From Psilocybe cubensis (lineage: Eukaryota), in NCBI GenBank assembly GCA_017499595.2, contig CM039005.1, forward strand, positions 2,418,001 through 2,482,000: a DNA stretch of 64,000 nt, read 5' to 3'. How positions within the stretch are numbered: position 1 is the stretch's first letter; every line of letters starts with the position of its first letter. This document shows, in pieces, positions 25,441 to 47,091 of the stretch. Under the pieces are notes generated by a model, which worked only from the letters and a program-made list of their open reading frames with translations, ran no database searches and was not told the DNA's origin. A program made the position numbers and the translations under genes.

Positions 25441-25818
25441 TGTTAAAACTGCTCTCTATGTCTCCCTCACTTTGCTATCTTATCAGATTAGATTACTTTC
25501 TTCTTATCTTCATTTGCTCTCCAGACCATTCTAGACACATGATATTTATCAGTCCATAGACTGGTTTGGACCGGACCAGAGTAGACCTAGGTAGACCAGA
25601 GTACTTGAGTCTACATAGTATATAGTCACTTTAGTTTACATTCTGAAGTCCCCAGTTACTCACTTCGGACTTCAGGTTAGTTTGTTAGCACTTTGCTCAA
25701 TTCACTTAGTTACTCACTTTGGACTTCAGACGCTTCGTGCTTGCTTATCCCTGCGCCCTACGTTCTATAATTAGGTCGCCGAGTAGCTCACACTGCCCCA
25801 AGCTCGCCTGCTTCAACA
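25441..25818 (+). mobile_element. Solo LTR of the resident Copia family
   Basis: TGTTAAAAC...TTCAACA, 378 bp; perfect 5-bp TSD TGATT on both sides. Confidence 0.95.
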
Positions 25819-26675
25819 TGATTTGGAATTTCCATTTGCTGTCATCGAATATCTCCTCTAGTGGATTAGATATTCTCTATTTTTTCTTTCCATTTTCAGT
25901 TAATAGAGATGGAAAATGCAAGAACAATGAGAGTTATCATTTTCCTTGCAAGTTTTCTTGTTGGATATTTCTGTAATTTTGTCTTCCATGGCCCTGTGAA
26001 GGATCTCTAAAATAGCTGTTATGAATGTGCTATACTGCAAAAAGAATGAACAACACACCAGCAAAGAGCAACCAACTTACAAGATTGCATGGAATCGATT
26101 TTGCATATCTACCTGCCTAACATGTTATCCATATGGACAGTGTCATTATACATCACGTGACTTACAAAGAATATCAAAAAGATAAGATACTCTACAGATA
26201 AAATAAGAGCAAGATAAGAAAATCCCCTAAGATTGTTATTATCTGCCATCAATACTCAGACAATCAATCCCAATAAAAGTCAGATATGTGCTATTCTGCG
26301 GATATCTGCATAAATCTGCAATCCAGATATACGAGGAAATATACAGAAAATTTTCCACCTGCAGATTTTTTTCTGGATATGTCTGTTGTTTCTGCATGAG
26401 TGGACTCAACATAGGTTTTTTGGTTGTAGATAGTTCTGGAGCACTCTGAGACTATCTGTATCATTCTGTGCTTATCTACCAATCTTTGAACTGACAGTTT
26501 TATTTTAATCACATTATTCTGTACATGTGTCTGTAGCTATCCAAGACTATCCAAGCACATCTGCGCCAATATGCCATGAACATTCCTCTTGTATTTTCCA
26601 TATTGCCATGATCACTAAGTTAATCACTATAAAAAATGGCAGAATAATAAGTCCAACTGATATAGATACACATGA

Positions 26676-29600: not shown

Positions 29601-30697
29601 GAAACGCACTGAATGCATCGCTTTTGCGCTTAAGAAGCACAGCAGCTCTACTCTTTGTATGGTCATCAATAAAGGTTATCCAGTAGCGATAGCCTTCAGG
29701 AGTAGGGGGCGAGATAGGACCTTTCAGATCTGAGAAGATAAGCGCAAGCGGAACATCTGACATGCTGGGTGAAGAAGGAAATGGGTTGGAATGCATCTTG
29801 CCTGCAAGGCAAGGTTCACAAATGGGGTCAGGCTGTTGCTGTGAATTCAGCTTGAGTCCGGTGACCATACCCTCTCTAATCATCTTCTGGATGTCAGTGT
29901 AGCTATGATGAGCAAAGCGACGATGCCAGAGACTGATATCAAGGGGTAGAGTGGAATTGGAGGAAATGAAGGCAGATTCCGAAATAGGAACTGTATAACC
30001 GTTCAATAAAGCGCAGTTTGATGTACTAACATCTGCAGAGAAGAGACAAGCTCCTTTGCGATAAAACTCCATCAGATTAGCATCAATGGTGATTTTGAAG
30101 CCTTTGTGCTTTGTGAGGTATAGAACAGACAGTAGATTGTTTCGGAGATCTGGTACATGTAAAACTCTAGTTAACTCGACGCCTCTTGACTTTATTCCAT
30201 TTACAACTGGTTCAAAGAACACAGTGCCCACCCCTGCAGAATAAATAACTCGTTCATCTGCTAATCGGATTGGAATGCGAAGAGGGGTGTAATTTCTAAC
30301 CCAATTGCGGTGGGGCGTCATATGAGAAGTCGCCCCTGTGTCTGCAATCCAATCGTCATTAGTTTGGGGTGAAATGGAAGAGGGAACATCGGTATTAAGA
30401 GCACTTGCATTTCCAGCAAATTCTATGTCCTTGGACTCTTTTTCCTCTGAGGCCTTGTGCGCTCTGTTGCCTTTGCAAGCTGCTTTGACACGCTCCTTTG
30501 CATCCTTTTGCGCAGCAATGAACTTGTGACACTTGTCCATTGCATGATTGGTCATATCACAAAATGCACACTTGGGCTTGGATGCAGAAGGGGCTGGAGC
30601 GGTCTTGAATGCGGTGGCGAGTGCAGGCAACTCCGAAGCGCGGCAACGTTGCTGTATGTCCTCTGTGACAAAGGCTTGATGAATTGTAGCCTTGTCC
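26676..30697 (-). mobile_element. 5'-truncated Copia element (3' LTR 26676-27053, PPT, pol)
   Basis: Reverse-complement copy of about 43045-47086; homology stops abruptly at 30697 within gag; no 5' LTR or PBS adjacent. Confidence 0.95.
27117..30697 (-). pseudogene. Copia gag-pol (PR-IN-RT-RNase H), N-terminally truncated, 8-bp deletion frameshift at about 27487
   Basis: ORFs 27442-30630 and 27117-27422; GCTATTGG is missing relative to the intact copy. Confidence 0.92.
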
Positions 30698-31639
30698 GGT
30701 GCATGGCCTTTTATTAGATAGTGAAGTGCTGATTACAACAATCTTGCCACTTCAAAGCCAAAAAAGCAATGCCCAAATACTTAATTGCACAATCACACCA
30801 GTGAATACCATATTATTGATGTTGATGCAGGTACAGTTCTCCGTGATACATGTTTATATATTTTGAATCATGGTAGTGATACTTCACATTCATTCAGTTC
30901 CCCGTTCCGGTTCTGGGTCCATCTACACTACCCAACCCAGAATTTGCATTGGATTTGCCTCGTCGCCATTTTGACTAGAACATCTGTTGAGTTGGTCACC
31001 ACATTGACATCAAACTCTACAAATCTTTGCATCTTAGAAGACTTAGAAGTGCCTATAGTCAATGCTGTGGTAACTGTATCACAGCTTGTATTGTTTGTAT
31101 TGTCCTACTAATGCAGATCCGATTTGTAGAAACACACAGACAGGTTGGCCAGTGGTACTACAAGCAACATTTCTGGCACTTCTGAACCACCTGCATTCCA
31201 GAGGGTAGAGGAGTGGAGCTGACTATACCTAATGGAGTTTAGCAAAATGCTATATCAACTTGTCATACAAGGGTAATGGCTACTTATTGTTTTTTGTTGT
31301 TATTCTTTTTCTAAATGTGTCATTGTTAAGTTAAATTCTTTGTAAGTTCAAGTCATTTCTTTGTTATTCTATAACTGACAACCACATTATACAAACCAGA
31401 GCCAGACTTACCAGTCCAAATCCGGCCTCTGAAGTTCCTGGGCAAATTGCTCTTGAAAATACCTCTAATTCCAAATCTTCTATGGTCCCAGCACAAAAGG
31501 GGAAGAAAGCAAAACCCATGGTGGTTTCAAAGGTGCTGACCACTTGGTAAGAAATGTATATCTTCTATGTATACCTCATAATGATTTGTTTGCATTTAGA
31601 AATTTTTTTGCACTTGATTACCTGAGAACACACCCTAAT

Positions 31640-32022
31640 TGTTAAAACTGCTCTTTATGTCTCCCTCACTTTGCTATCTTATCAGATTAGATTACTTTCT
31701 TTTTATCTTCATTTGCTCTCCAGACCATTCTAGACACATGATATTTATCAGTTCATAGACTGGTCTGGACCGGACCAGAGTAGACCTAGGTAGACCAGAG
31801 TATTTGAGTCTATACTGTACAGTATATAGTCACTCTAGTTTACATCCTGAAGTCCTCAGTTACTCACTTTGGACTTCAGGTTAGTTTGTTAGCACTTTGC
31901 TCAATTCACCCAGTTACTCACTTTGGACTTCAGATGCTTTGTGCTTGCTTATCCCCACGCCCTATGTTCTATAACTAGGTTGGCAAGTAGCTCAGACTGC
32001 TCCGAGCTCGCCTGCTTCAATA
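31640..32022 (+). mobile_element. More diverged solo LTR of the same Copia family
   Basis: Collinear with the other LTRs, with C>T changes; TSD ambiguous (TAAT(T) / TGATT). Confidence 0.9.
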
Positions 32023-33484: not shown

Positions 33485-35510
33485 ATGCAAGATTTCTTAA
33501 CTATCATGCCGCCTGGCAAAGCAAAACGGGTTGTATCCATTGCAGCAGCCAGAGAGGCTAAAGCAGAAAAGAAAGCTGCGCTTGACTCAGAGACTGCATT
33601 GGAGAGTCTTTGGGAAGAACTTAAAGCTGCACAATCACGTATCAAGGAATTAGAGACCATGCTTTTTAAGAAGGAAAAAGAGTGTGCTGGTCTAAGTTTA
33701 AGGCTTGAAAGTGCTCTTTTGGAGTTGGACAAGCATAAGAATGAAGCCTCCTTGATGAAGTCTAAAAGCAAAGACACTTATCATGAGCTTCGCATGCAAC
33801 GTCAAACTACAAAGCGCTAGAAAGCTAAAAACTCTCAATTAGAGGAACAAATTATGATTTTAAAGACAGCAGAGAAACAAGCATCCATACAGCATTTACG
33901 TGGAGCTCAGCAGTCACATGAATCCCACTTATCACTTAAAAAGGCTAATAAAGAATTGCGACAGACCTTATCTAAATCCTTATCCCAATGGTTTCTCCAA
34001 TTGGCTGATGCACATTCCAAGCTTAGTATATCCAATGACCATCTGCAGGATCTTCAAAAAGAGGCACTGAATCTGCGCAAAACCTTGGAATACACCAAAG
34101 CTACCAAGAATAAAGCTCTTGCTAATTTGCATCATAAAATTTATCAAGAGCAATCTGTGCATCATTTTACCAGCAAAGGAGTTATTACAGAAAGCACTTG
34201 GGATGTTGTTTGCCTTCTTGTTAAGGCTGGCTGCTCACGCAATTATATCCAAGATATTATAATGGCCGTGTTAAAATCTATGGGATTGGAAGCTATTGGT
34301 GGAATTAGTCGGGCTTCGGTGTCTTGCATTCTTCGTAAAGGTTACTTTGCTGCACAAATTCAACTTGGATATAAAATGAAGAATACAGATGGAATGACCT
34401 TTAGTGCCAATGGTACAGGCTACCGGAGCATCAATTATAATTCCCAATATGTTCATCTTCTTGCAAAAAACTCCACAATACTTGACAATACCACATTTGA
34501 ACAGCATGTTACTCGTTCACTTGGAATCCAATCTTTACGGGATGGTACAAGTGCAGAAGCTGTAGCAGATTGGCAAAAATCATTGGAGGGAATTCTTAGC
34601 ATTTACAATAATAGTCCACTTGGCAAGCAATCTGGATCCATTTTTAAAATTGCAGAACTCTTTATAAAACTTATGGGGATAAATACCAATCATTGTGCAA
34701 AGAAAAAGAAAGATGCTCATTTATTAGAGGCAATAAAGGCAGCTGCAGTTGATCAACAGCTTGGAGAGGAAAGAATGCTTGAAATGTCTTTTGAAGAAGT
34801 TTCAGAATATTTTTAAAAGGCTGAAGTAGCTATGATAAAGAAGGCAGGAGGGCAGAAAAAATGTGATGCTTTATCAGAAATCCAAAAAGGAGAAAGAAAA
34901 ACTGTTATATTGGAGACTGCAATTGCGCAACTTGGAAAGACTGCTTTTGATAGCCTTCCAGACTCTGAAAAGCAACTTCTTCGATTATTTATTTGGGCTA
35001 GATGTGGATGCCACAAAGACTTAAACACAGTCAAGGGTGGCTATATAGCAATGCTTAGGTGGTGGAATGAGAATGAAAGTGATGATGTTATCCGTCCAGT
35101 TCTGTTGGCAAATTGTGATAATGGTCCTGTTATACAAGAGCGTGCTACTATTCTTGAGGATAGAAATATACCCACAGCTGCTCAGGAGAGAGCCTTTTCT
35201 AAATCAACTCGAGGCGCAATTAAAACTATTAAAATTGCTGGAGCTATCTTTAACCACAAGGCTGATAAGAAAGGGCACCATGATGTATTCCGCTTTTGGT
35301 AGTGGGAGCACATTGGAGTTCCATTTACATTTCCAAATACTTTCAACAACTGGTTTCAATCCTATTGCAATGCATTTGCTGCATTTCTTTTGTATAAAGA
35401 AGAGTTCAAGCTGTTTTTAAAAAATCTCCGTATTAACAAACAAAACTCAACACTCAACCATATGGAAACCAATCTTATAAATGCTCTCAACTGCTCTTCT
35501 ACCGATAGCG
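33485..35510 (+). pseudogene. DDE-type transposase, 5' part (coiled-coil N-terminus, S.(D>N)GT, GCHKDLN CxxH motif), with stops
   Basis: ORFs 33383-33820, 33854-34816 and 34832-35302 lie in one frame separated by single stops; continues to the Copia insertion site. Confidence 0.7.
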
Positions 35511-35889
35511 TGTTAAAACTGCTCTCTATGTCTCCCTCACTTTTGCTATCTTATCAGATTAGATTACTTTCTTCTTATCTTCATTTGCTCTCCAGACCAT
35601 TCTAGACACATAATATTTATCAGTCCATAGACTGGTCTGGACTGGACCAGAGTAGACCTAGGTAGACCAGAGTACTTGAGTCTACACAGTATATAGTCAC
35701 TCTAGTTTACATCCTGAAGTCCCCAGTTACTCACTTTGGACTTCAGGTTAGTTTGTTAGCACTTTGCTCAATTCACTCAGTTACTCACTTCGGACTTTAG
35801 ACGCTTCGTGCTCGCTTATCCCTGCGCCCTACGTTCTATAGCTAGGTCGCCGAGTAGCTCACACTGCCCCGAGCTCGCCTGCTTCAACA

Positions 35890-35902
35890 GGTTATGGGCC
35901 CC
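35890..35902 (+). promoter_or_regulatory. Copia primer-binding site GGTTATGGGCCC(C), complementary to the anticodon arm of tRNA-Met (half-tRNA priming type)
   Basis: Directly follows the 5' LTR terminal CA; the reverse complement GGGCCCATAACC contains the CAT anticodon loop; same PBS type as Drosophila copia and yeast Ty5. Confidence 0.85.
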
Positions 35903-38900
35903 GCGCTCTAAGCGCTCCAATTCCGTGTTTTGCGAACCAAGTTGCTTTCTGCATAGTTTTCACAAAACGGTCATTTTAGTTTTTTTTTTGTCTTTTATCC
36001 TCTACCAGGCCCGGCCATACATTGCCGCTGCTAGTGGTTTACCGATCATGGGGGTGGGTATGTTATCTGCCAGTTATCTGCCCGGAATCTTCCGGGAAGA
36101 CATCCTTTTGCTCTTTATTCGATAACTCTACAACTTTACACCGTGAAAGTTAACAGTAATGTTGTTTGTAGGCCATAGAATACTATTTTCACTTCAAATT
36201 TGACAATGAGCGAGTGAGTGTGCTCAGAAACAGGTATATGTTATCTGCCACTGCAAATGTTATCTGCCATGCCCCTATTGTTATCTGCCAGTACACCGTT
36301 TTCAGTTCATTAGCTAATCCATTCTAAAGTCCCAACTCCGTTATTGTACCAAAACTGTAACTCGCTGCAACTAACGAGCGACAAGCTCAATACCTCTTTC
36401 CCTTCATTGTCCATCCAGCTTTTATTCTGAACAGTATTGAGACTAAACGTGCAGGTAAGCCCTTTCGGTATCTAGCTTAGAACGAGTGTATTTATTCATT
36501 GGTCTGTGTACTTTCACAGTGAATGTCAGCAAACATTTTGCTCCAGTCCGAAGGAGATTATCAAGCCGGTTCTATTGAACCTGCATGCTCCCACAGCAAT
36601 GTGTCGAGAATTGACGCCGTCCAAACACCGCCAGCGGAGACTTTTCAAGACGCGTCCGAGTCTGCTGTTATTCGTGACCGTGATGTTACAGGTATGTCAA
36701 TTAAATCACGTACGCGTCAATGACGTGTTGCACTAACAGACGCGGTTTGTAGATAGCGAAGCAGACGACGAGTTTGGCCTTGAGTTTGACTTGACACTGG
36801 AAGACTTGTTTGTTCTGGATGAACTTGAGCGTGAGGCATTGAAAAAAAATGACATAAATGCGAATCAGAGCACTAGTAAGTGATTTATCACTTTCTCGGA
36901 TATATATACACTTGTTATATTTACTGTTGAATAAATTTTACAGATTCAACGCCTACATCACCCTTATTGACGACGGCTGACAATCAGCCGTCAACGTCAA
37001 CGGATGCCGCTCATGTGTCAGTTATGGGTGAACGGGACTTGGAAGACCAAAATATGCCTCAGATAACCCTTGCCCAGCTACGTGAAGTTGCTTCACACTC
37101 ACAGCGTCGTAAGTGTGGGTATCTGTGTGAGAATATATGACTAACAGTACATATTTTAGAACCGTTTTTTACCCCCTATGCTACATATGAGGATAGTGAT
37201 ACGGATGACGATGCAGAAGTTAGTGATTGCGAGGACGAGGCTGGGAAGCCAAGGCAAGAACCTGCTAAAACAAGTCCAAAGGAAAAACACACAGGTATGT
37301 TCTTTGTATATATGTGCATTTTCTTTTAATTCAACATCATGCACATATGTCAGCCTGGTTCAAAAGACCACAGCATATGCCCAAGTGGCTATATGACTTT
37401 TTTGTGTCTGTTGTTCAGCCACTTATCTACTCAAAACATGGCAGAAAGCGTGGAATTCCTGCAATGTTCTCTGATAATACTCGAGCATATGCACCGCCGT
37501 CGTTCTGGATAAATCCTCCTGAGCCGTGCATATTACTTTCTAAGTACCGATTCGATCTTCCCACGCTTTGGCGCCCACGGATCTACGTCTGGATTCCTCA
37601 TGATTTTGTCAAGACTTTGTGCTGTCCAAACTGTGGAACTCCTCTAGAGAAGAATGGAGCCTCACGTCCTCGTCGAATTATTGACATCGAGGATAATTTC
37701 TACATTGTAACGTGGAAATATTACTGCCGCGATGGGTGCAAGTCGGCTTTCCGAGGTTGGAACACAGCTATAGTCAACTCTTTGCCTGCGTATCTACGAT
37801 TGGCCTTTCCAGCTGTGCTATCTCGTCGGAGCGGTGTTTCCACGCGCCTCCTGCGTCAACTTCGAGTTTGTAACCAACATAAGATGGGTCCGAGCGGCTA
37901 TCGGTCAATGTTGCTTGAAAATCATACGTTCAAATTCAGTCAAATTCAAAACCAATATCTCGAGGCAGTTTTCGAGATGGTTCGTGGACAGCAGCACGCA
38001 ACGTCAATAGGACAGGAAACGCTACATGCATTTGTTCCGCCAAAGGCTGATTCATTTGGGAACTTTACGGATCCTGACAAATACGCAGGGTTTGTTCCAA
38101 GCGAGAGATACCTTGCGAGCATGATGAATAAAGCCATTGAACGTGATGAAAGTGACGCTAATCAACACACTGCATGTCTTGCACCTGACCAAATCGCAAT
38201 CGATGACTCGCACAAGGTAATAATCAAATATATTACTTCTATTTGTGTCAATTCTTACTGATCTCCATTGCGTTAGGTCAACAAGCATATTGCAAAGGTT
38301 GACGGTGTACCAGTATTTACTGCACTATTTACGTGCATGGACTCAAAGTATATCCAGGGACAAGCTCTTACTCTCACTAAATCTCATGAAGAGCGCTCAG
38401 GCCCTTTACAACAAATTGCCAAATCTGTAAAGCGCTACGGACATGATAATCCAAGTGTTATGTATTCGGATGACCCGGTCAAGGTATGTTGATATTTGGA
38501 TTTGTCTTGATCAGTAAAAAGAAGCTAAAGTATTACTATGTATAAGGACAAACCACTTCTGTATAGCGCATTCCCAGAACTCTTTGAAGATTTAATGCCT
38601 ACGGCTGCTGCTCATGGTTTGACGGCACTTGATTTACCCGATGACATCAAAGTGTCCTGGTTGGCATCGTGGGATGTGACAGAATCCACACTTGCTGCTC
38701 TTCTATCATCCCTTGATTCTGATTCTGAAAGATATCTGTGTGTTAGCCTTGATGCTGAATGGAATTTGTCACGGAAGATTGGAGTGTCGGTAATCCAAAT
38801 TGCCCCTCACAGCCTTCCAAACGTGATCTATGTCATACCCGTGCGTAATAATTCAACTATATTTAAACTGTACTAAATGATTCAAAGGTTCATAAATTCG

Positions 38901-41900
38901 GTAATAAACTACCACCATCCCTCCTCCGACTTTTAATATCAAATCAAGTCTTTAAAATTGGATCTGGAATCAAGGGCGACATCACTCGATTAAAAAAACA
39001 GTTTCCAATTCTCGGCTCGCAGCTGACTTTCAATCTTATTGATTTGAAAGAATACTGCGTCGAGCGCGGATTAATTGCCCGAAAGGCATCTGGATCTCTT
39101 GAAGCCCTGTGCGAGGGTATTCTTAAGCAATATCTTCCAAAAGAGCAACGACTTAGAAGATGCGAGGACTGGGAGCTCAAATCACTAAGCTCCGAGCTTC
39201 TTCATTATGCCGCACGTGATGTTTTTGCATCGCGCATACTTTTTGAGAAGGCAATGGAATGCGCGCCTATTGCCCGTCCACAGTTTGATTCGCCAGCTGG
39301 AACACCAGTCGCCTTGCTCTCCCAAGAAGGTAGCGACCCAATTGCGTATGGTGTCATATCTCCTAACCAACCTACAACACTTGGAAACATTCGAGTTAAA
39401 ACACCAAATCGCAATCGCCTTGTTCTTGATATACACACCGTGATATCTCCTTCGGCTGCTGTGATGCTTCATTTGCCATCGCTGGGACACAACAAGAAAG
39501 GAAAAACAAAATCCGGAGCTCTTACATTAGAGCAAATACGAGCGTCTTCTTTGGATCCACATATGTCAACATTTAAAATTGTTGCACCCCTCCTATTAAT
39601 GGAGTTTGATTTCCGAGCATCACCGTCCGAGGTAAGCAAGTTGCAACGATGACTATATATCCATATTAATCTTCAAAATTTGAAGTTAATGAGCAGTGCA
39701 TCGCGCCCTAATATTGAGGCATCCAAAAAGCATACCAATCTAGAAGACAATCTGCTTTCTGGGTCTAGTATTGAGGAAGATAGCTTCTTAGATGACACTG
39801 CATCTTTGGCTAATGATTTGGGCGAAGAAACCGAGGTTTCACCTCAAGACACATCGGATCTTGTTGCTTTAGATATGCTTGAGGCATACTCAAAGATTGA
39901 AAATTGCGAAGGTTTGTTAACTAATGCTTATAACTTGCTTCATCCGGATTTGTATTGATGTAATCTATCATTAGATGCTCAGCGAGTGCAGTCCGCAACC
40001 CAACATTCTATTGTGAATACCCTTCAAAAGTTGATTAATTCACCTCCCGATGCCAAATCCGAGTATACACGAGTCAAAAAGGACATTTTCCATGCATTCC
40101 ATATGATCCCCATATCAGTCAATCATGGCGCACGCCCTTCTTTTCTTCGTGCTATGCGCGACCATTTGATGCGCTGGGATCCCAAAATTCGAGTGACAGT
40201 CGATGAGGCCTGCCAAAAACACTTCAACCTCACGTTTGAGCAAATGCTGCTTAGAAATCCTCGATTTATTGCCGAACGCACCCCCCGATATGTCCCCTCT
40301 CCAAGTATTCTTGTTCCTGCATTAAAATTGGTCTTTGAGACTTATGGCAATGCCTTGGACGTCAAGACAGGATTGCCACTTTTTAGTGCAGATGCGCAAC
40401 AGAAAGCTAATGCTGTAATTGAACTTGCACGTGAAGGCTATTTATCCGACATCGAAGGAGTTGTCCTATACGAGCGAGCAGGGATTGACAAATATGGTCT
40501 CCAAAAGTATAAATGTCTACGGGGAACAAACAATGTTGAAGGCGGCCCGCATGGTGACATTTACCGAAAATTTGGTGCTCTTCACGGTAAGATTTTAAAT
40601 GCTGGATAGTTTGTATAGCACTATGCTAACATGTATACGGATTATTACTTTCATAGCCGGACCAAGACTTACAGTTAACTGCTTGACCGATCATAGAACC
40701 TGGTACAATCTACAGGTTGGTTATCACATTTCTGTTTTTACAAGATTATTGGCTTAATACAATGCACTTTGTAACTCCAAATCTTATACTAGGCATTTGC
40801 AAAGCATATCTTTGGTGTGGACTGGGAGTACCACCATGATATTGCACTAATAAACCGGACCTCCTTTCTTTTAAACTATCTCTCCGATACTATTGATGGA
40901 TCAGCCTCATATACAGAGTGGATAAATGGGGATCTTTATGAGAAGACCACCGAAGAGTTTGGGGTTTGCAAATTTCCAGGTATATAATTAAAATCCACCT
41001 AACTTCTATCTTCCCCATGTTCACATAATTTTTCATATTTAGATTCGCTCCGAATACGGCTGGGAATGGAGCCATATAGCGCTGAGGCTGAAATCCAATA
41101 TCGACTCAACTCAAGTGACAATTGGCTTCGTAAGCGGCAAGGCTTAGCTTTGCCTGTATTACCGCCTACAACTTTGGAGGCCAGAAAGTATTTCTTTTTG
41201 AAGATTCGGGATTTTGCCGCTCTTGCTAACGACGCTGGCCAAAGTCGGATTAATTTTGAAGCATTTGCACAAGAGTGGAACCGGACCGCAAATGGAAAGG
41301 AACGAGTATATATCACCACCGAGGTGTTGGCAGCCTACTCAAAGACATGGGAAAAGATGACAAATATTCGCGCATCGCAAGAGCTCATTCAAGATAAGCT
41401 AGAGGTTCTTAAAGTGACAGCAAATGTCTTTGCTGCAGAAAAGCAGCCTTTTCCAATATACCTTTCGGGAACATCTGTATCAACACAGCCTCGACATGGA
41501 GTTATCGAGATACCAGACTCCGAGTCATTACAATCCAACCAGGTTCCTTCTTCGCTCTCTGTTAATCTTTCTATCTCTCGCCCCCCATTACCCAGTCCTC
41601 CTACTCAGAACATTTCCAACTCTTCCATTGATCCCAGACTATTGTCCCTTTCCGCTACAAATGTTGAAGTGCCAGTCCGGTGAGTCATACTTTTCAGTTC
41701 AACCAAGTCTCAACTTAATTTGAATTCACTTTAGTACATTGTCTTCAACGTCGTCCGATTTGCAATATCACAATGAAGACAATGTCAACAATGATCGACC
41801 AACTAAGCGCAGACGCATCGTTCCCGACAGTAAACGTAAACGTTCTCTGCGCAAATGCCGTCGATGCCTCAAAACTACGTGCGCAGGGAACAGCAATGTA

Positions 41901-42284
41901 CTTAATTGTAACATTGTGTGCAAGGTACCGTGTACAAAGTGCAAGCGCACAACCGAATGTCGAGGTGTAGATGGTGGGCGTGCATGCACATGGAAAGGTG
42001 GTGATACTATTGCTACATCTCCTTAAACACTAGAAATTTGTGGTATTTGTGGTCCGTAAGTACTCAAGTTACCAAATATCTTCACAAATTCACGAAGTTC
42101 AATGTCTCACGCTTTGGACACACGTGATGCTCGTGGAATTGTAATTGATGAGCATTGGTAATCCTCTTCATTCTCTTTCTTTTTTCTTCATTTTCCGCAT
42201 TCAATACCCACCCCCATGAACGGAAAACCCTGCTAGTAGGGTTGAACGAGCACGCCTTACGCGACTTGTTAACCTCGGTTGAGC
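35903..42284 (+). mobile_element. Dada-superfamily-like DNA transposon inserted in the Copia PBS
   Basis: 7-bp direct repeat GGGCCCC at 35896-35902 and 42285-42291; no long TIR; subterminal inverted repeat 36036-36061 / 42204-42229 (24 of 26 match); one multi-exon transposase gene. Confidence 0.8.
36523..42026 (+). CDS. Multi-exon (about 13 exons) Dada-like transposase with zinc-ribbon region, DDE-type core, inserted DEDDy 3'-5' exonuclease and Cys-rich C-terminus
   Basis: Short GT-AG introns of about 47-77 bp (e.g. 38217-38276, 38484-38546, 38841-38887, 40980-41042) join the ORFs in frame. Motifs: CPNC..YYC..C; IDDSHK-VNK; YSDD; LDAEWN / GIKGDITRL / YAARD (Exo I/II/III); KDIFH; CLRGTNNVEGGPH; C-terminal CRRC...CTKC. 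No internal stops seen in the inferred exons; the start codon is uncertain. Confidence 0.8.
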
Positions 42285-42496
42285 GGGCCCCCGTCGCCTA
42301 ATCCCCGAGTTATTTCTAGTTAAAAGTAACCCTTTTAAATTAGGCTAGTTTAACTTCGTCTTTTCAACTTGCGTTCGCATCGCACCCCGAGCTCCGGGTA
42401 ACGCCTAGTTTGTTTCCACACATTATTACACATCCCCACACATTACTACCAATACTCGTATCCATCCGCTTACACGTTCCTTCGCAATTCGCAATA

Positions 42497-45400
42497 ATGA
42501 CTTCTGATCCCCAAATCACTCTATTGAACTCAACCAACTACAACACCTGGGCAGGCCAGATGACCGCCTATCTCCAGTCTAAAGGGATATGGCGCATTGT
42601 CAGCGGTGCTAGAGCACAGCCAACGCTCTCAGACAAGCCTACTGCTCAGGAGGAAGCTTTGCTTGAAACCTATTTTGAGCAGAGAGACAAAGCATGTGGT
42701 TTGATCTATCTCAGTTTGGAGAATGATCAGAGGGTTCATGTGGAAGCCATCAAGGATGATCCTATCAAAATGTGGGATGCCCTCGCCACTGTACATCAGC
42801 AAAAGCGCCCTGGCAACCGCTTTAATGCATATGATGATCTGTTCTCCATCCGAAAGGAGGAAGGTGAAAACCTTCAAACCCTAATCAATAGAGTTGAGCA
42901 AGCCATGTTGCTAATTCAGCAGCTTCGCCCTAAGGGGTTTGATCTGGCTAAGCTTGATGAAGAGCTTGCTTCGCTTGCTCTGGTCAGGGCACTCCCAGAA
43001 GAGTACAGTTCATTTGCATCCTCACTTCTCCTTTTGGACAAGTTGGACAAGGCTACAATTCATCAAGCCTTTGTCACAGAGGACATACAGCGACGTCGCC
43101 GCGCTTCGGAGTTGCCTGCACTCGCCACCGCGTTCCAGACCGCTCCAGCCTCTTCTGCATCCAAGCCCAAGTGCGCATTTTGTGATATGACCAATCATGC
43201 AATGGACAAGTGTCACAAGTTCATTGCTGCGCAAAAAGATGCGAAGGAGGGGGTCAAAGCGGCTCGCAAAGGCAATAGAGCGCACAAGGCCTCAGAGGCA
43301 TCCAGGGAGGAAAAAGAGTCCAAGGACATGGAATTTGCTGGAAATGCAAGTGCTCTTAATACCGATGTTCCCTCTTCCATTTCACCCCAAACTAATGACG
43401 ATTGGATTGCAGACACAGGGGCGACTTCTCATATGACGCCCCACCGCAATTGGGTTAGAAATTACACCCCTCTTCGCATTCCAATCCGATTAGCAGATGA
43501 ACGAGTTATTTATTCTGCAGGGGTGGGCACTGTGTTCTTTGAACCAGTTGTAAATGGAATAAAGTCAAGAGGCGTCGAGTTAACTAGAGTTTTACATGTA
43601 CCAGATCTCCGAAACAATCTACTGTCTGTTCTATACCTCACAAAGCACAAAGGCTTCAAAATCACCATTGATGCTAATCTGATGGAGTTTTATCGCAAAG
43701 GAGCTTGTCTCTTCTCTGCAGATGTTAGTACATCAAACTGCGCTTTATTGAATGGTTATACAGTTCCTATTTCGGAATCTGCCTTCATTTCCTCCAATTC
43801 CACTCTACCCCTTGATATCAGTCTCTGGCATCGTCGCTTTGCTCATCATAGCTACACTGACATCCAGAAGATGATTAGAGAGGGTATGGTCACCGGACTC
43901 AAGCTGAATTCACAGCAACAGCCTGACCCCATTTGTGAACCTTGCCTTGCAGGCAAGATGCATTCCAACTCATTTCCTTCTTCACCAAGCATGTCAGATG
44001 TTCCGCTTGCGCTTATCTTCTCAGATCTGAAAGGTCCTATCTCGCCCCCTACTCCTGAAGGCTATCGCTACTGGATAACCTTTATTGATGACCATACAAA
44101 GAGTAGAGCTGCTGTGCTTCTTAAGCGCAAAAGCGATGCATTCAGTGCGTTCCAAACGTACAAAGCATGGGCTGAGAACAAATTAGGCTTTAAGATCAAA
44201 GCGCTGCAGGATGACAAAGCTGGTGAATACATGTCAAATGCTTTCATCAAATTCACTGACCAGTGTGGCATTGAGCGTCGTCATACAACGCGAAACCGCC
44301 CACAACAGAACGGAGTTGCAGAGCGTGCAAATCGCACCATGGCAGAACATGTTACTTCCATGCTCAATGAGGCTCGTGTTCCACCTTCGTTTTGGGGTCG
44401 CTGTGTTGCAGCATACATGCATGTATGGAATCGTGTTCCTACAGCTCCTCTACCGGATAAGACTCCGTATGAAAGCTGGAACAAGCGCAAACCTGATGTT
44501 AGTCATTTGAGGGTTTGGGGTTGCCTTGCATATGTTTATGTTCAGGAAGATAAGCGCAAATCGTTGCAGCCTCATATGGAAAAGTGTATCTTTGTTGGGT
44601 ATCCTACTGGGTACAAGGGCTGGGAGTTTTACAACCCAGTCACCAAAAGGTTCATTATCTCTGAGAGAGCTGATTTCGACGAAAGGTGCTTCCCTGGGGT
44701 GTCCACTGGCCCTATGCCAAAGGTTGACCTTCTTCCCACTTCTTCTGCAAGTGCACCACCTCCCAATTCAGGGGGGAACTCTAATGGCTTCAACTTTGAT
44801 GATGATGAGGATGACTCTACTCCAAGTCCTGTCATTGAGCCAGAAGTGCCTATTGCGCCTCCTGAACAGCCAGCTGAACCGCCACAGCCTGAGGCCTTTT
44901 CTGCACCTCCTCCTAAGCCTGCACGCCACCAGTGTGCTCCAGTTGATTCCGCAACATTAAAACGCACTACTCGCGTTCCTAAGCAGCCTGGTAAATGGTG
45001 GAAGCTCTCACATGATCCTGAACCACCTGAAGCCAATGATCCTGGATTTGAAGAGGTGGAGTTTGCTGGGCTTGTTTCAAGCGCAGATCCGCGCACATTC
45101 AAACAGGCAATGAAAGTGCCTGATGCGCACATGTGGAAAGAGGCTGCTAACACAGAATTCAATCTGTTGCAGCACAATCAAACTTGGGAGCGAGTTGAGC
45201 TCCCTCCGGGTCAAAAGGCAATTGGCTGTGGTTGGGTCTTTAAAATCAAGCGAAATGCAGATGGCAGTATAGAGCGCTACAAGGCTCGTATTGTTGCCAA
45301 GGGCTACAGTCAGCGCCCTGGCATTGATTACCATGAGGTCTTTGCTTCTACTTTCCGCCCTGCTACTTTCTGCTTGATTGTGGCTCTGGCCGCCATTGGA

Positions 45401-46645
45401 GACTTGAAGTTGCGCTCTGTTGATATTACAGCTGCTTTCACTAAAGGTGACCTTGACGAGGAGATTTACATGTTACAACCTAAAGGATTTCACCAAGGTG
45501 GTCCTAACATGGTTTTGAAACTCAAAAAGTCGCTCTATGGTCTTAAGCAGTCTGCACGTCAATGGAACCTCAAGTTGCATGAGGCATTGTCAGATATGGG
45601 GTTCAAGCGTATAGAATCAGATCGCTCTGTCTACATCTATTCAGATGGAGATGTGAAGATTATTGTTCCCATTTACATTGATGACATTACCTTTGCCTCC
45701 AAATCGGATGCTGCCATAGATAGAGCTGTTAAGCAGCTAGCTGCGCGTTTTAAACTCCGTGATCTGGGTCCTACACAGTATTTACTTGGTGTTGCCATTG
45801 AGCGAGATATGGCTGCTAAAACAATTTCCTTGCATCAGCGTCAGTATATCCTTGATATGCTTGATACATATGGCATGACTGATTCTAATCCGGTCAAAAC
45901 ACCTATGGCTGTAGGCACTGTTCTTTCCAAGGCAGATGGACCTCAGAATGGAGATGAGGTGGAATTTATGCGAAATGTTCCCTACCTCAATGCAGTTGGC
46001 TCCTTGCAGTATCTAGCCACCATGACCCGTCCTGACATTGCTTTTACTGTGTCCTATCTGGCACGCTTCAACTCCAATCCTGGGCCTAAGCATTGGGCTG
46101 CGGTTAAACATTTATTCCGCTATCTCAGAGGCACTCTGGATTACAAGTTGACTTATTCTGGCGCTGTGGGCCATGATAACTTTGTCACCTACACTGATGC
46201 TGCACATGGTGATTGTGTAGATACTGGACGCTCTACGAGTGGTTATTTGACCGTTCTAGCTGGAGGTGCTATTGGCTGGGCAAGCAAACTCCAAACTGTT
46301 GTAACTCTGTCTACTACTGAGGCAGAGTACATTGCTGCGGTGGAGGCAGCCAAGGAGATTGTGTGGATGCGCAATATCCTTGAGGAGTTTGGCTACACAG
46401 TCACTGAGCCCTCTGTGCTGCATATGGACAACCAGTCATCTATCAGTGTTTCCAAGAATCCAGAGCACCATGGACAGATGAAGCACCTTGATTTGCGCTA
46501 TTATTGGCTTAGGGATGCTGTTGGTGTTGGAAAGATTTCTCCTTCTTATATTCCTACTGATCAGCAAGCTGCTGATATTCTCACCAAACCCCTCTCACCT
46601 CCCAAAGTGGACTTTTGTAGAGATAAAATGGGTCTCAAACTTTAA
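42497..46645 (+). CDS. Copia Gag-Pol polyprotein (1382 aa from the first ATG), intact ORF
   Basis: Gag CAFC..H..C knuckle, WIADTGAT protease, WHRRFAH..CEPC and QQNGVAER integrase, YIDD RT, and TDAA..STTEAEY..ADILTK RNase H, in Copia domain order. Confidence 0.97.
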   Translation: MTSDPQITLLNSTNYNTWAGQMTAYLQSKGIWRIVSGARAQPTLSDKPTAQEEALLETYFEQRDKACGLIYLSLENDQRVHVEAIKDDPIKMWDALATVHQQKRPGNRFNAYDDLFSIRKEEGENLQTLINRVEQAMLLIQQLRPKGFDLAKLDEELASLALVRALPEEYSSFASSLLLLDKLDKATIHQAFVTEDIQRRRRASELPALATAFQTAPASSASKPKCAFCDMTNHAMDKCHKFIAAQKDAKEGVKAARKGNRAHKASEASREEKESKDMEFAGNASALNTDVPSSISPQTNDDWIADTGATSHMTPHRNWVRNYTPLRIPIRLADERVIYSAGVGTVFFEPVVNGIKSRGVELTRVLHVPDLRNNLLSVLYLTKHKGFKITIDANLMEFYRKGACLFSADVSTSNCALLNGYTVPISESAFISSNSTLPLDISLWHRRFAHHSYTDIQKMIREGMVTGLKLNSQQQPDPICEPCLAGKMHSNSFPSSPSMSDVPLALIFSDLKGPISPPTPEGYRYWITFIDDHTKSRAAVLLKRKSDAFSAFQTYKAWAENKLGFKIKALQDDKAGEYMSNAFIKFTDQCGIERRHTTRNRPQQNGVAERANRTMAEHVTSMLNEARVPPSFWGRCVAAYMHVWNRVPTAPLPDKTPYESWNKRKPDVSHLRVWGCLAYVYVQEDKRKSLQPHMEKCIFVGYPTGYKGWEFYNPVTKRFIISERADFDERCFPGVSTGPMPKVDLLPTSSASAPPPNSGGNSNGFNFDDDEDDSTPSPVIEPEVPIAPPEQPAEPPQPEAFSAPPPKPARHQCAPVDSATLKRTTRVPKQPGKWWKLSHDPEPPEANDPGFEEVEFAGLVSSADPRTFKQAMKVPDAHMWKEAANTEFNLLQHNQTWERVELPPGQKAIGCGWVFKIKRNADGSIERYKARIVAKGYSQRPGIDYHEVFASTFRPATFCLIVALAAIGDLKLRSVDITAAFTKGDLDEEIYMLQPKGFHQGGPNMVLKLKKSLYGLKQSARQWNLKLHEALSDMGFKRIESDRSVYIYSDGDVKIIVPIYIDDITFASKSDAAIDRAVKQLAARFKLRDLGPTQYLLGVAIERDMAAKTISLHQRQYILDMLDTYGMTDSNPVKTPMAVGTVLSKADGPQNGDEVEFMRNVPYLNAVGSLQYLATMTRPDIAFTVSYLARFNSNPGPKHWAAVKHLFRYLRGTLDYKLTYSGAVGHDNFVTYTDAAHGDCVDTGRSTSGYLTVLAGGAIGWASKLQTVVTLSTTEAEYIAAVEAAKEIVWMRNILEEFGYTVTEPSVLHMDNQSSISVSKNPEHHGQMKHLDLRYYWLRDAVGVGKISPSYIPTDQQAADILTKPLSPPKVDFCRDKMGLKL

Positions 46646-46695
46646 TCTTTCTTTCTCTGTTTTGCGTTATTTTTCTTTGTTCTGGAGACTTGTCA

Positions 46696-46708
46696 GAACA
46701 GGGGGGAG
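46696..46708 (+). promoter_or_regulatory. Polypurine tract of the Copia element
   Basis: GAACAGGGGGGAG immediately before the 3' LTR TG. Confidence 0.85.
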
Positions 46709-47091
46709 TGTTAAAACTGCTCTCTATGTCTCCCTCACTTTGCTATCTTATCAGATTAGATTACTTTCTTCTTATCTTCATTTGCTCTCCAGACCATTCT
46801 AGACACATGATATTTATCAGTCCATAGACTGGTCTGGACTGGACCAGAGTAAACCTAGGTAGACCAGAGTACTTGAGTCTACACAGTATATAGTCACTCT
46901 AGTTTACATTCTGAAGTCCCCAGTTACTCACTTCGGACTTCAGGTTAGTTTGTTAGCACTTTGCTCAATTCACTCAGTTACTCACTTTGGACTTCAGACG
47001 CTTCGTGCTCGCTTATCCCTGCGCCCTACGTTCTATAACTAGGTCGCCGAGTAGCTCACACTGCCCCGAGCTCGCCTGCTTCAACATAGCG

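What the first reader, a model, noticed from the sequence alone, without database searches (positions are those of the whole stretch)
36523..42026. Apparently intact 13-exon transposase with a WRN-like DEDDy exonuclease embedded inside the catalytic core
Seen: Exo I (LDAEWN), Exo II (IKGD) and Exo III (YAARD) residues are all present. They lie between the upstream acidic motifs (IDDSHK, YSDD) and the downstream DxxH and RGTNNVE motifs. The exons are stop-free and CpG-rich, unlike the decayed neighbours, which suggests a recent and possibly active element. An exonuclease in some fungal and algal Dada proteins is recalled from the literature, but its role (end trimming, RNA processing, anti-silencing) is unknown to me. 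If target specificity holds, this is a candidate sequence-specific integrase.
Basis: partly seen in the sequence, partly recalled or inferred. Interest (0 to 1): 0.7.

Follow-up and report, generated by a model that had tools for sequence, protein, structure and literature searches.

The report
Intact fungal transposon with built-in exonuclease
This is a complete, recently inserted jumping gene of a mushroom genome whose cutting-and-joining enzyme carries a DNA-trimming module inside its catalytic core, a design first reported in 2013 for a related mushroom.

Summary
Window 36523-42026 (+) reads as one stop-free gene of 14 exons (not 13) with 13 GT-AG introns, giving 1570 aa.

The gene is the only gene of a 6194-bp DNA transposon (36036-42229). 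The element has 26-nt terminal inverted repeats and a perfect 8-bp target duplication (CTGCTAGT). It sits in the 5' leader of a Copia retrotransposon. Contigs of two public runs join 36027 to 42230, which is the empty site.

A confident AlphaFold model of a homologue shows an RNase H-like DDE fold. Its best transposase match is ISCth4 (IS256 family), Z 12.5. A WRN-like DEDDy exonuclease (Z 17.1) is inserted between strand 4 and strand 5 of that fold. Both sets of catalytic residues are kept in about 85-97% of 98 aligned relatives from four fungal phyla.

This architecture was published for the Laccaria "Dada" elements (Kojima & Jurka 2013), so the core finding is known. What I found in none of the four Dada-related papers whose passages I read:
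- The ends are conserved: GGTTTWCC-N-CTGGGTRT repeats, 8-bp duplications and 5' TTATCTGCC repeats.
- Target specificity is lacking: 16 different flanks, none in a small-RNA gene.

The "sequence-specific integrase" idea is not supported. The scan had not met this family before; it had noted other transposase-exonuclease pairings.

The parts
36028..36035 (.). left copy of the 8-bp target-site duplication, CTGCTAGT
   Evidence: It is identical to 42230-42237. The empty-site joint 36027->42230 has 8 letters that fit either side.
36036..36061 (+). 5' terminal inverted repeat, GGTTTACCGATCATGGGGGTGGGTAT
   Evidence: The 26-nt arms are 92% complementary to 42204-42229. The same bipartite motif lies at the ends of related elements.
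36062..36290 (+). 5' subterminal repeats: five copies of GTTATCTGCC, starting at 36062, 36073, 36240, 36259 and 36280
   Evidence: five copies here and none elsewhere in the window. The same 9-mer lies at the same offsets (about 27-40 and about 203-255) in L001, L017 and L033.
36523..42026 (+). Transposase gene of 14 exons encoding 1570 aa. Exons: 36523-36691, 36753-36875, 36944-37108, 37160-37294, 37354-38216, 38277-38483, 38547-38840, 38888-39631, 39686-39911, 39975-40586, 40657-40715, 40793-40979, 41043-41679, 41735-42026.
   Evidence: Searches give the model. P0002, a public protein model named Psilocybe cubensis by its source, is 100% identical over residues 1-1179. Homologues cover exons 11, 12 and 14.
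37354..38216 (+). Exon 5: CCCC zinc finger (C288, C291, C322, C326), DUF6729 region, and first catalytic Asp D481 (38202-38204)
   Evidence: Pfam DUF6729 E 1.1e-18. D481 maps to strand 1 of the modelled RNase H fold.
38277..38483 (+). Exon 6: strands 2-4 of the RNase H fold and second catalytic Asp D550 (38469-38471)
   Evidence: D550 is kept in 94 of 98 rows. It maps to the end of strand 4 in the model.
38547..39631 (+). Exons 7-8: WRN-like DEDDy 3'-5' exonuclease (D623, E625, D683, Y759, D763) followed by a small beta-rich domain
   Evidence: Pfam PF01612. Foldseek and VIA matches to WRN exonuclease. Profile against PDB E 9.3e-39. Catalytic residues are kept in 89-95 of 98 rows.
39975..40586 (+). 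Exon 10: strand 5, DxxH (D1012, H1015), helical insertion domain, and catalytic Glu E1164 (40538-40540) in RGTNNVE
   Evidence: No Pfam family matches this part.
41735..42026 (+). Exon 14: basic KRRR stretch and a C-terminal Cys-rich motif (CRRC..C..C..C..PC..C..C.GVDGG..C)
   Evidence: The motif is aligned in 7 of 10 homologue C-termini. tblastn of 5 of 8 homologues hits 41784-41996. The public model P0002 splices this region differently.
42204..42229 (-). 3' terminal inverted repeat (reverse complement GGTTTTCCGTTCATGGGGGTGGGTAT)
42230..42237 (.). right copy of the 8-bp target-site duplication, CTGCTAGT
35511..47086 (+). Host Copia LTR retrotransposon: LTRs at 35511-35889 and 46708-47086, gag-pol frame 42497-46645. 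The element is inserted 138 bp after the 5' LTR.
   Evidence: The LTR pair is 97.9% identical. Pfam finds Retrotran_gag_2, rve and RVT_2. The uninterrupted leader is seen in contigs of X1 and X3.

Best explanation
Window 36036-42229 is a complete autonomous cut-and-paste DNA transposon. Source names on identical proteins point to Psilocybe cubensis. It belongs to the fungal exonuclease-bearing lineage that Kojima & Jurka (2013) placed in the Dada superfamily.

Shown here:
- It has 26-nt inverted ends, an 8-bp target duplication and an empty site in other contigs.
- It has one 14-exon gene for a 1570-aa protein.
- That protein has an N-terminal CCCC zinc-finger/DUF6729 region and an RNase H-like DDE core (D481, D550, E1164, with DxxH at 1012-1015).
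- A WRN-like DEDDy exonuclease plus a small beta domain and a disordered linker lies between strand 4 and strand 5 of that core.
- The C-terminus carries a Cys-rich motif.

Inferred:
- The zinc-finger/DUF6729 region binds the conserved end motif and the 5' TTATCTGCC repeats.
- The DDE site cleaves the ends and joins the 3'-OH ends to target strands cut 8 bp apart.
- The built-in exonuclease trims 3' ends in the transposition complex (flanking nucleotides, flaps or the non-transferred strand), as the 2013 paper proposed. This last step is the least certain; I put it at about 0.4.

The element inserts without evident sequence specificity.
For: Termini and mobility:
- The inverted repeat is 26 nt and 92% complementary.
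- Identical 8-mers flank it.
- One contig of X1 (depth 1911.5) and one of X3 (depth 10.5) join 36027 to 42230, skipping 6202 nt with 8 shared letters.
- A 6254-nt X1 contig carries the element with 11 differences.

Family-level ends:
- Only two of the 80 metagenome loci show both ends. L001 is 6130 bp with TIR 26/26 and duplication AAAAGAAG. L017 is 5973 bp with TIR 21/26 and duplication CTTATTGT.
- 15 of 16 loci with at least 700 bp downstream have the end motif 466-960 bp after the match.
- The bipartite motif occurs 22 times in 419,760 bases, against 0 in each of 20 shuffles.
- TTATCTGCC lies at the same 5' offsets in 4 of 4 elements with a 5' end.

Protein:
- The model is stop-free.
- Conservation in 98 rows: D481 89, D550 94, E1164 83 (11 gaps), D1012 86, H1015 91, D623 89, E625 92, D683 91, Y759 95, D763 94.

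Fold:
- The AlphaFold2 model is of homologue P0188 (30% identical in the tool's alignment). Mean pLDDT is 85.4 and pTM 0.76.
- VIA matches: WRN exonuclease Z 17.1 (model 337-495); ISCth4 transposase Z 12.5 with 352 of 401 residues aligned over model 7-875; Hermes Z 9.5; P-element transposase Z 9.3; integrases about Z 8. All the transposase matches span the insert.
- Foldseek gives ISCth4 E 6.9e-4.

Literature: the same domain order is reported for Laccaria and Ectocarpus Dada (PMC3706591, passages).
Against: - No direct comparison with the Repbase Dada sequences or the paper's Dataset S1 was possible, because supplements are closed.
- The link to animal Dada rests only on language-model look-alike clusters labelled 'commonest Chordata' (scores 0.94-0.97). 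Those are leads, not tests.
- Two word-indexed searches found only fungal or unnamed proteins: 93 and 58 hits.
- Hallmarks given for Dada are not met here: small-RNA-gene targets, 6-7-bp duplications, no terminal inverted repeats.
- The confident structure is of a homologue, not of this protein. The model of the 88%-identical paralogue P0046 was poor in the core (pLDDT under 50 at residues 80-147 and 787-804).
- Splicing is predicted, not observed.
- The 10 coding differences from the X1 copy are 4 synonymous and 6 non-synonymous. That shows no selection since the copies split.
- Nothing here shows what the exonuclease acts on.
Confidence: 0.85

Rival explanations
1. It is not a Dada element in the strict sense. 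It would be a separate Mutator/IS256-like (or otherwise distinct) lineage of C/DxxH transposases that acquired a WRN-like exonuclease. The grouping of the Laccaria elements with animal Dada would then be a loose superfamily label.
For: - Its best structural relative is the IS256-family ISCth4 transposase (Z 12.5, 352 of 401 residues; Foldseek E 6.9e-4).
- The TNNxE motif around the catalytic Glu resembles IS256/MULE; this is recalled, not tested.
- It has terminal inverted repeats, 8-bp duplications and no small-RNA targets. The Dada description differs on all three (PMC3706591, passages).
Against: - The 2013 paper explicitly reports this domain order for Laccaria Dada.
- It has the N-terminal CCCC finger and DxxH listed for all Dada.
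- DUF6729-bearing and C-terminal look-alike clusters are commonest in Chordata, where Dada abounds.
- No Pfam Transposase_mut or MULE hit appears at E up to 1.
- ISCth4 is, to my recollection, the only solved IS256-family structure. If so, a closest match to it is expected for any relative of that group.
Confidence: 0.12
2. It is a host gene, a cellular Werner-like or EXD2-like exonuclease as the public annotation names it, and not a mobile element.
For: The sources name P0002 'Werner Syndrome-like exonuclease' and P0046 'Exonuclease 3'-5' domain-containing protein 2'. The exonuclease residues are intact.
Against: - It has inverted ends and an 8-bp duplication.
- The empty site occurs at about 44-fold higher depth than the element.
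- It lies inside a retrotransposon.
- A DDE core surrounds the exonuclease.
- There are many paralogues per genome in other fungi.
- No helicase domain is present.
Confidence: 0.02
3. It is a target-specific integrase, as animal Dada are. The target would be a sequence in the multicopy Copia leader or a small-RNA-like motif.
For: - The insertion lies in a high-copy repeat (empty-site depth 1911 against 43). That resembles the multicopy-target strategy.
- The left flank reads CTGCT, which recalls the CTGCG noted for zebrafish targets (PMC3706591, passage).
Against: - Seventeen ends (16 loci plus the window) have 16 different 8-bp flanks with no shared motif. Two loci with the same flank look like one site sampled twice.
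- No tRNA was found in 20 loci, and no Rfam family in 16 loci covering 114,560 bases.
- None was found in the window either.
- Elements with identical 30-nt ends sit at different flanks (L043 against L024/L045).
Confidence: 0.04
4. The exonuclease is a captured passenger or a separate gene inside an intron, not a working part of the transposase.
For: It is flanked by introns, and a 100-aa disordered linker follows it.
Against: - The reading frame runs through it in phase.
- The fusion is kept in relatives named from Agaricomycetes, Pucciniomycotina, Mucoromycota and Chytridiomycota.
- Its five catalytic residues are kept as well as the DDE residues.
- The RNase H fold closes around it in the model.
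Confidence: 0.03

Closest known systems
Dada-1_LB and Dada-2_LB of Laccaria bicolor, and Dada-1_ES of Ectocarpus (Dada superfamily; Kojima & Jurka 2013, PMC3706591)
   Same: - A multi-exon gene in an element of 5.6-7.8 kb.
- A DDE transposase with DxxH and an N-terminal CCCC zinc finger.
[quoted passage not shown]
- Host order Agaricales.
   Different: - The paper names no target for the Laccaria entries (Dada-1_LB, Dada-2_LB) and says all elements with definable termini were in small-RNA genes. I read this as their ends not being defined.
- Here the ends are defined: 26-nt inverted repeats, an 8-bp duplication and 5' TTATCTGCC repeats.
- The C-terminal motif here is all-Cys, without the His of the CCHC finger described.
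- A direct sequence comparison could not be run.
Animal and Perkinsus Dada (Dada-U6, -U1, -tRNA, -5S; PMC3706591 and PMC8869645, passages read)
   Same: Catalytic layout and spacing are similar. D1 to D2 is 69 aa here and 68 in Dada-U6_DR. The distance from zinc finger to D1 is similar. The DxxH signature is shared.
   Different: - They have no exonuclease and no terminal inverted repeats.
- They make 6-7-bp duplications.
- They insert strictly into tRNA, snRNA or 5S genes. The fungal elements here show none of these.
ISCth4 transposase (IS256 family, PDB 6xg8/6xgx)
   Same: It is the best structural match to the transposase part: Z 12.5, with 352 of 401 residues aligned, including the region before the core. 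The RNase H fold has a helical insertion before the catalytic Glu. IS256-type elements also make 8-9-bp duplications; this is recalled.
   Different: Identity is 10%, and no Pfam Transposase_mut hit was found. It is prokaryotic and has no exonuclease domain. Its copy-out/paste-in mechanism is recalled and not tested here.
WRN exonuclease domain (PDB 2fbx, 2e6l), EXD2, and Nibbler/mut-7
   Same: DEDDy fold and residues are shared. VIA Z 17.1, rmsd 2.3 over 137 residues, 28% identity. The profile E-value is 9.3e-39.
   Different: Here it is an internal domain of a transposase, with no RecQ helicase. Its substrate is unknown.
KolobokD (DEDDh exonuclease) and other nuclease-bearing Kolobok lineages (PMC9587614, passages read)
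   Same: It is another C/DxxH-group transposon lineage that carries a 3'-5' exonuclease thought to act on DNA intermediates.
   Different: It has a DEDDh, not DEDDy, exonuclease, a different superfamily, and TTAA 4-bp duplications. The passages I read do not describe the exonuclease as lying inside the catalytic core.

Membership tests
Dada superfamily (Kojima & Jurka 2013) | DDE triad with a DxxH motif after the second D | tested here: met
   D481, D550 and E1164 with D1012/H1015 are kept in 83-94 of 98 rows. They map to strand 1, the end of strand 4, the helix after strand 5, and just after strand 5 in the model.
Dada superfamily (Kojima & Jurka 2013) | N-terminal CCCC zinc finger | tested here: met
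   C288, C291, C322 and C326 are kept in 73, 72, 80 and 63 of 98 rows. Most of the rest are gaps from truncated models.
Dada superfamily (Kojima & Jurka 2013) | C-terminal CCHC zinc finger | tested here: inconclusive
   A conserved C-terminal motif of nine Cys is present in 7 of 10 homologue C-termini, but it has no conserved His. Without the published alignment I cannot say whether it is the same finger.
Dada superfamily (Kojima & Jurka 2013) | Sequence similarity of the transposase to named Dada transposases | not testable with these tools
   Repbase and Dataset S1 are not available. The only leads are look-alike clusters 'commonest Chordata' for the DUF6729 part (0.96, 0.95) and for the C-terminal half (0.97, 0.94). 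Searches returned no non-fungal named protein.
Dada superfamily (Kojima & Jurka 2013) | Insertion into small-RNA genes with 6-7-bp duplications and no terminal inverted repeats. The paper states this for members with definable termini. | tested here: not met
   The three complete elements have 8-bp duplications and a conserved 26-nt inverted repeat. There are 16 different flanks among 17 ends. No tRNA or Rfam hit was found.
Exonuclease-bearing Dada lineage (Dada-1_LB type) | [quoted passage not shown] | tested here: met
   The residue order is D550, then D623/E625/D683/Y759/D763, then D1012. The structural insert lies between strand 4 and strand 5.
DEDDy 3'-5' exonucleases (Pfam PF01612; WRN/RNase D type) | Exo I DxE, Exo II D and Exo III YxxxD motifs on the DnaQ-like fold | tested here: met
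   Pfam E 1.1e-9 on P0002. WRN exonuclease is the top match by Foldseek, by VIA with Z 17.1 and by profile with E 9.3e-39.
IS256 / Mutator-like transposases | Sequence membership (Pfam Transposase_mut or MULE) and fold | tested here: inconclusive
   The fold match to ISCth4 is Z 12.5. No Pfam transposase family appears at E up to 1 in 10 exon pieces and 5 full proteins. No transposase chain is among the 51 profile hits in PDB.
hAT superfamily | 8-bp duplication, hAT dimerisation domain and a Hermes-like core | tested here: not met
   The 8-bp duplication is shared and Hermes matches at Z 9.5. No Dimer_Tnp_hAT or other hAT Pfam domain was found.

The most novel reading that the evidence does not exclude
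The fungal exonuclease-bearing 'Dada' elements are a distinct, pan-fungal, non-target-specific lineage. They have their own conserved asymmetric ends: GGTTTACC at the 5' end, mostly GGTTTTCC at the 3' end, and TTATCTGCC repeats only at the 5' end. Their transposase is IS256/ISCth4-like. The WRN-like exonuclease, wedged between strands 4 and 5 next to the DDE site, would be an obligatory second active site. That would make the chemistry of end processing differ from every characterised eukaryotic cut-and-paste transposase. Examples would be removal of flanking 3' nucleotides or of the non-transferred strand in an asymmetric pathway.
Probability: 0.3. Interest if true: 0.55.

Novelty: new member of a known kind. 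Interest (0 to 1): 0.3.

Why it matters
The headline feature, an exonuclease inside a DDE transposase core, has been in print since 2013, so it is not a discovery.

Three things are still useful.

1. Annotation. Public records name this gene and its relatives 'Werner syndrome-like exonuclease', 'EXD2' or '3'-5' exonuclease'. They are transposase genes. The public model of this copy also skips exon 11 and most of exon 12 and mis-splices the C-terminus.

2. Defined ends. The four Dada-related papers whose passages I read do not give termini for the fungal lineage. Here the lineage has defined ends, an 8-bp duplication and no target specificity. It therefore should not be treated as a ready-made site-specific integrase.

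3. A testable copy. An apparently intact copy with known ends and an observed empty site is a practical starting point. It allows a test of what a built-in 3'-5' exonuclease contributes to DNA transposition, which is still untested.

Tried and rejected
- RNA evidence. No RNA holder was listed for the element. The two runs guessed to be RNA covered only the Copia flanks, so splicing is unconfirmed.
- Whole genome. None is held, so copy number and other insertions in this genome could not be surveyed.
- Small-RNA targets. Rfam at gathering threshold and ARAGORN found nothing in the window. A permissive Rfam scan of 35000-43000 gave four matches with E 0.2-6.7, all far below gathering scores. Twenty related loci had no tRNA and 16 had no Rfam family. 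A gene split by an insertion could escape both tools.
- Link to animal Dada by sequence. The word-indexed searches listed only fungal or unnamed proteins. The exhaustive phmmer search lists only its best 150, and all 20 I named were fungal or unnamed.
- Literature. 'DUF6729' occurs in no paper of the library. Searches for Dada with Basidiomycota, with terminal inverted repeats, and with TSDs/Kolobok/MuDR/exonuclease turned up nothing on the ends or targets of fungal Dada. Muszewska 2017 (PMC5751038, passages) counts 1,023 fungal Dada copies in four phyla and does not mention the exonuclease.
- First structure job (P0046, 32 sequences). Mean pLDDT was 68.9 and the RNase H part was under 50. It was useful only for the exonuclease.
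- dN/dS. Only 10 coding differences from the X1 contig, 4 synonymous and 6 non-synonymous; too few to interpret.
- L059. Its 34-nt inverted repeat has no matching duplication, and I did not take it as element ends.
- Earlier scan notes. A sequence look-up and a look-up for this genome returned nothing.
Full report
**1. The observation**

I rebuilt the gene from the raw sequence.
- Stop-free segments in three frames were joined through 13 introns. One acceptor was corrected by hand and checked.
- All introns are GT..AG and 47-77 nt long. They give a 4713-nt CDS from the ATG at 36523 to the stop at 42024-42026, which is 14 exons and 1570 aa.
The exon count is 14 in my model, not 13.
- Pfam finds DUF6729 in exon 5 (E 1.1e-18) and the 3'-5' exonuclease family PF01612 in exon 8 (E 4.4e-7). 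It finds nothing in the other 8 of 10 pieces.
- CpG observed/expected is 0.91 in the element against 0.13-0.71 in the 29 other 2-kb bins.

**2. It is a bounded mobile element with an observed empty site**

- A 26-nt inverted repeat (36036-36061 and 42204-42229, 92% complementary) brackets the gene. It is flanked by identical 8-mers, CTGCTAGT.
- The element lies 138 bp inside a Copia retrotransposon. Its LTRs (35511-35889 and 46708-47086) are 97.9% identical. Its gag-pol frame is open for 1433 codons.
- When contigs of three public runs were laid on 35400-42600, one contig of X1 (depth 1911.5) and one of X3 (depth 10.5) joined 36027 directly to 42230. They skip 6202 nt, with 8 letters that fit either side. 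That is the uninterrupted Copia leader, and it fixes the element at 6194 bp plus one 8-bp duplication.
- X1 also holds the element on a 6254-nt contig at depth 43.4, with 11 differences, all transitions. The outer 29-30 nt of that contig did not align to the window's flanks. This hints at another insertion site in that sample, but I could not read those letters.
- No RNA run was listed.

**3. What the protein is**

Close relatives:
- A word-indexed search with exon 5 found 48 longer proteins.
- P0002 is 1475 aa. Its source names it 'Werner Syndrome-like exonuclease [Psilocybe cubensis]'. It is 100% identical to my model over residues 1-1179.
- P0002 skips exon 11 and most of exon 12, and it splices the last exon differently.
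- Homologues support my version. The exon 11-12 stretch is conserved.
- A C-terminal nine-Cys motif preceded by KRRR aligns in 7 of 10 homologue C-termini.
- tblastn of 5 of 8 homologues hits 41784-41996.

Size and spread of the family:
- An exhaustive phmmer search of 1.84 billion cluster representatives with the paralogue P0046 gave 2434 proteins at E up to 1e-3, 1185 at 1e-10 and 346 at 1e-30. The loosest count will include ordinary exonucleases.
The fungal names cover many Agaricomycetes, Rhodosporidiobolus, Phascolomyces, Podochytrium and Rhizoclosmatium.
- The fusion therefore occurs in four fungal phyla.

Conservation of catalytic residues, in an alignment of the model with 97 relatives of at least 850 aa (most misses are gaps in truncated gene models):

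| Residue | Role | Rows with the residue (of 98) |
|---|---|---|
| D481 | DDE | 89 |
| D550 | DDE | 94 |
| E1164 | DDE | 83 (11 gaps) |
| D1012 | DxxH | 86 |
| H1015 | DxxH | 91 |
| D623 | exonuclease | 89 |
| E625 | exonuclease | 92 |
| D683 | exonuclease | 91 |
| Y759 | exonuclease | 95 |
| D763 | exonuclease | 94 |

The second Asp of each 'DD' pair varies: H at 482 and N or S at 551 in a deep clade. The first Asp of each pair is therefore the catalytic candidate.

**4. Structure**

Its exonuclease was confident but its core was poor. Foldseek placed WRN exonuclease first (2fbx, E 2.8e-10, TM 0.84 on the target).
- The second model was of P0188, a 1043-aa relative named Phellopilus by its source. 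It is 30% identical to P0002 in the tool's alignment and was folded with 67 sequences. It reached pLDDT 85.4 and pTM 0.76.
- Its elements map onto the window protein as follows:

| Element in the P0188 model | Window residues |
|---|---|
| strands 1-3 | 477-517 (D481 on strand 1) |
| helix | 522-538 |
| strand 4 | 546-549 (D550 at its end) |
| exonuclease | 589-776 |
| beta-rich domain | 792-896 |
| disordered linker | 902-1001 |
| strand 5 | 1009-1011, followed at once by DxxH |
| helical insertion domain | 1029-1128 |
| hairpin | 1141-1156 |
| helix with E1164 | 1161-1175 |

- The Foldseek-independent search of 48,161 chains gave these matches:

| Chain | Z | Aligned | Model range |
|---|---|---|---|
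| WRN exonuclease | 17.1 (rmsd 2.3) | 137 residues | 337-495 |
| ISCth4 transposase (6xg8_A) | 12.5 | 352 of 401 | 7-875 |
| Hermes | 9.5 | 239 | 211-880 |
| P-element transposase | 9.3 | 242 | 218-887 |
| retroviral integrase cores | about 8 | 123-151 | from 228-230 to 875-922 |

- All the transposase matches bridge the insert. Foldseek also lists ISCth4 (E 6.9e-4).
- A profile of the family against PDB sequences hits WRN (E 9.3e-39), EXD2 (1.8e-26) and mut-7/Nibbler (1e-16), and no transposase.
The caveat is that the confident model is of a homologue.

**5. Family-level ends and targets**

One scan of metagenome contigs returned 80 loci that encode relatives.

Complete elements:
- Only two loci show both ends.
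- L001 is 6130 bp, with ends identical over 26 of 26 positions and duplication AAAAGAAG.
- L017 is 5973 bp, with ends matching at 21 of 26 positions and duplication CTTATTGT.

The end motif:
- Of 16 loci with at least 700 bp after the match, 15 have the same 3' end 466-960 bp downstream.
- The bipartite motif GGTTTWCC-N9-12-[CG]TGGGTR occurs 22 times in 419,760 bases, always at a predicted end. It occurs 0 times in each of 20 shuffles.
- Position 6 is A in all 4 true 5' ends. It is T in 13 of 17 3' ends.

Subterminal repeats:
- All 4 elements with a 5' end carry TTATCTGCC right after the repeat (offset about 27-40) and again at about 203-255.
- The six 3' ends examined show no repeated 8-mer of this kind; they read as A/G-rich sequence.

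Targets:
- The 8-bp flanks of 17 ends are 16 different sequences. L024 and L045 share one and look like one site sampled twice.
- L043 has the same 30-nt end as L024 and L045 but another flank.
- No tRNA (20 loci) or Rfam family (16 loci) was found, and none in the window.

**6. Comparison with what is known**

- Kojima & Jurka 2013 (PMC3706591; passages read) define Dada by several features. These are a DDE/DxxH transposase with N-terminal CCCC and C-terminal CCHC fingers, 6-7-bp duplications, no terminal inverted repeats, and strict insertion into snRNA or tRNA genes.
- They state that the Laccaria and Ectocarpus elements carry a DEDDy exonuclease between the second D and DxxH that 'likely process[es] the cleaved 3' ends'.
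- They also say that all Dada with definable termini were in small-RNA genes. The Laccaria entries carry no target name, which I read as their ends not being defined.
- Kojima 2022 (PMC8869645, passages) treats fish only.
- Muszewska 2017 (PMC5751038, passages) counts 1,023 fungal copies in four phyla and does not mention the exonuclease.
- The Kolobok paper (PMC9587614, passages) shows that exonuclease accessories recur in the C/DxxH group.
- Earlier notes of this scan likewise record other transposase-exonuclease pairings. One is an IS256-like pairing with 8-bp duplications in actinobacteria. I did not test those.
- I could not compare sequences with Repbase or Dataset S1. The only bridge to animal Dada is that look-alike clusters for both halves of the transposase are 'commonest Chordata', which is a lead.

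**7. Verdict**

- The finding is real and correctly read in its essentials, and its central point is already published.
- This copy is a new, apparently intact and recently inserted member of the fungal exonuclease-bearing lineage. Public records name it as a cellular exonuclease.
- Added here: the lineage's conserved asymmetric ends, the 8-bp duplication, the lack of target specificity, and a structural placement nearest the IS256-family transposase.
- The role of the exonuclease remains inference. Current activity and splicing remain unshown.

Noticed in passing
window 40587-40979 and 41735-42026: The public protein model of this gene (P0002) skips exon 11 and most of exon 12, and it splices the last exon so that the conserved C-terminal Cys-rich motif is lost. 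It is named 'Werner Syndrome-like exonuclease'. A paralogue (P0046) is named 'Exonuclease 3'-5' domain-containing protein 2'.
   Followed up: yes
window 36072, 36238, 36269 (loose ends in run X1): Contigs of X1 share the first ~37 nt of the element, or its TTATCTGCC repeat block, and then run on into unlike sequence. Depth at 36252 is about 304 against 43 for the element. This suggests other, possibly non-autonomous, elements with the same ends in that sample.
   Followed up: no
window 25441-25826, 26676-27054 (-), 31640-32020, 27442-30732 (-): Three more copies of the Copia LTR (92-97% identical) and a second Copia pol frame of 1096 codons lie to the left. The window is a nest of retrotransposons with strong CpG depletion, as low as 0.13.
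   Followed up: partly
window 50998-52242, within the G+C-richer block at 50-54 kb: An open frame with a reverse transcriptase domain of the RVT_1 type (E 6.4e-22), in a block of 52-55% G+C that stands out from the 33-47% around it.
   Followed up: no
L001 5082-5111: A second, diverged copy of the 5' end motif lies 55 bp upstream of the true 5' end of the L001 element. It may be the remnant of an earlier insertion at nearly the same place.
   Followed up: no
ends of the window element and of the loci listed: The two ends differ consistently at position 6 of the repeat. It is A in 4 of 4 true 5' ends and T in 13 of 17 3' ends. Only the 5' end carries TTATCTGCC repeats; the six 3' ends examined read as A/G-rich sequence. 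The element is built asymmetrically.
   Followed up: partly
window element against the X1 contig: All 11 differences between the window copy and the X1 copy are transitions.
   Followed up: partly
protein residues 792-1001 (window about 39300-40050): Between the exonuclease and strand 5 lie a small beta-rich domain, confidently modelled in the homologue, and a roughly 100-aa disordered, poorly conserved linker. I did not search the beta domain on its own.
   Followed up: no
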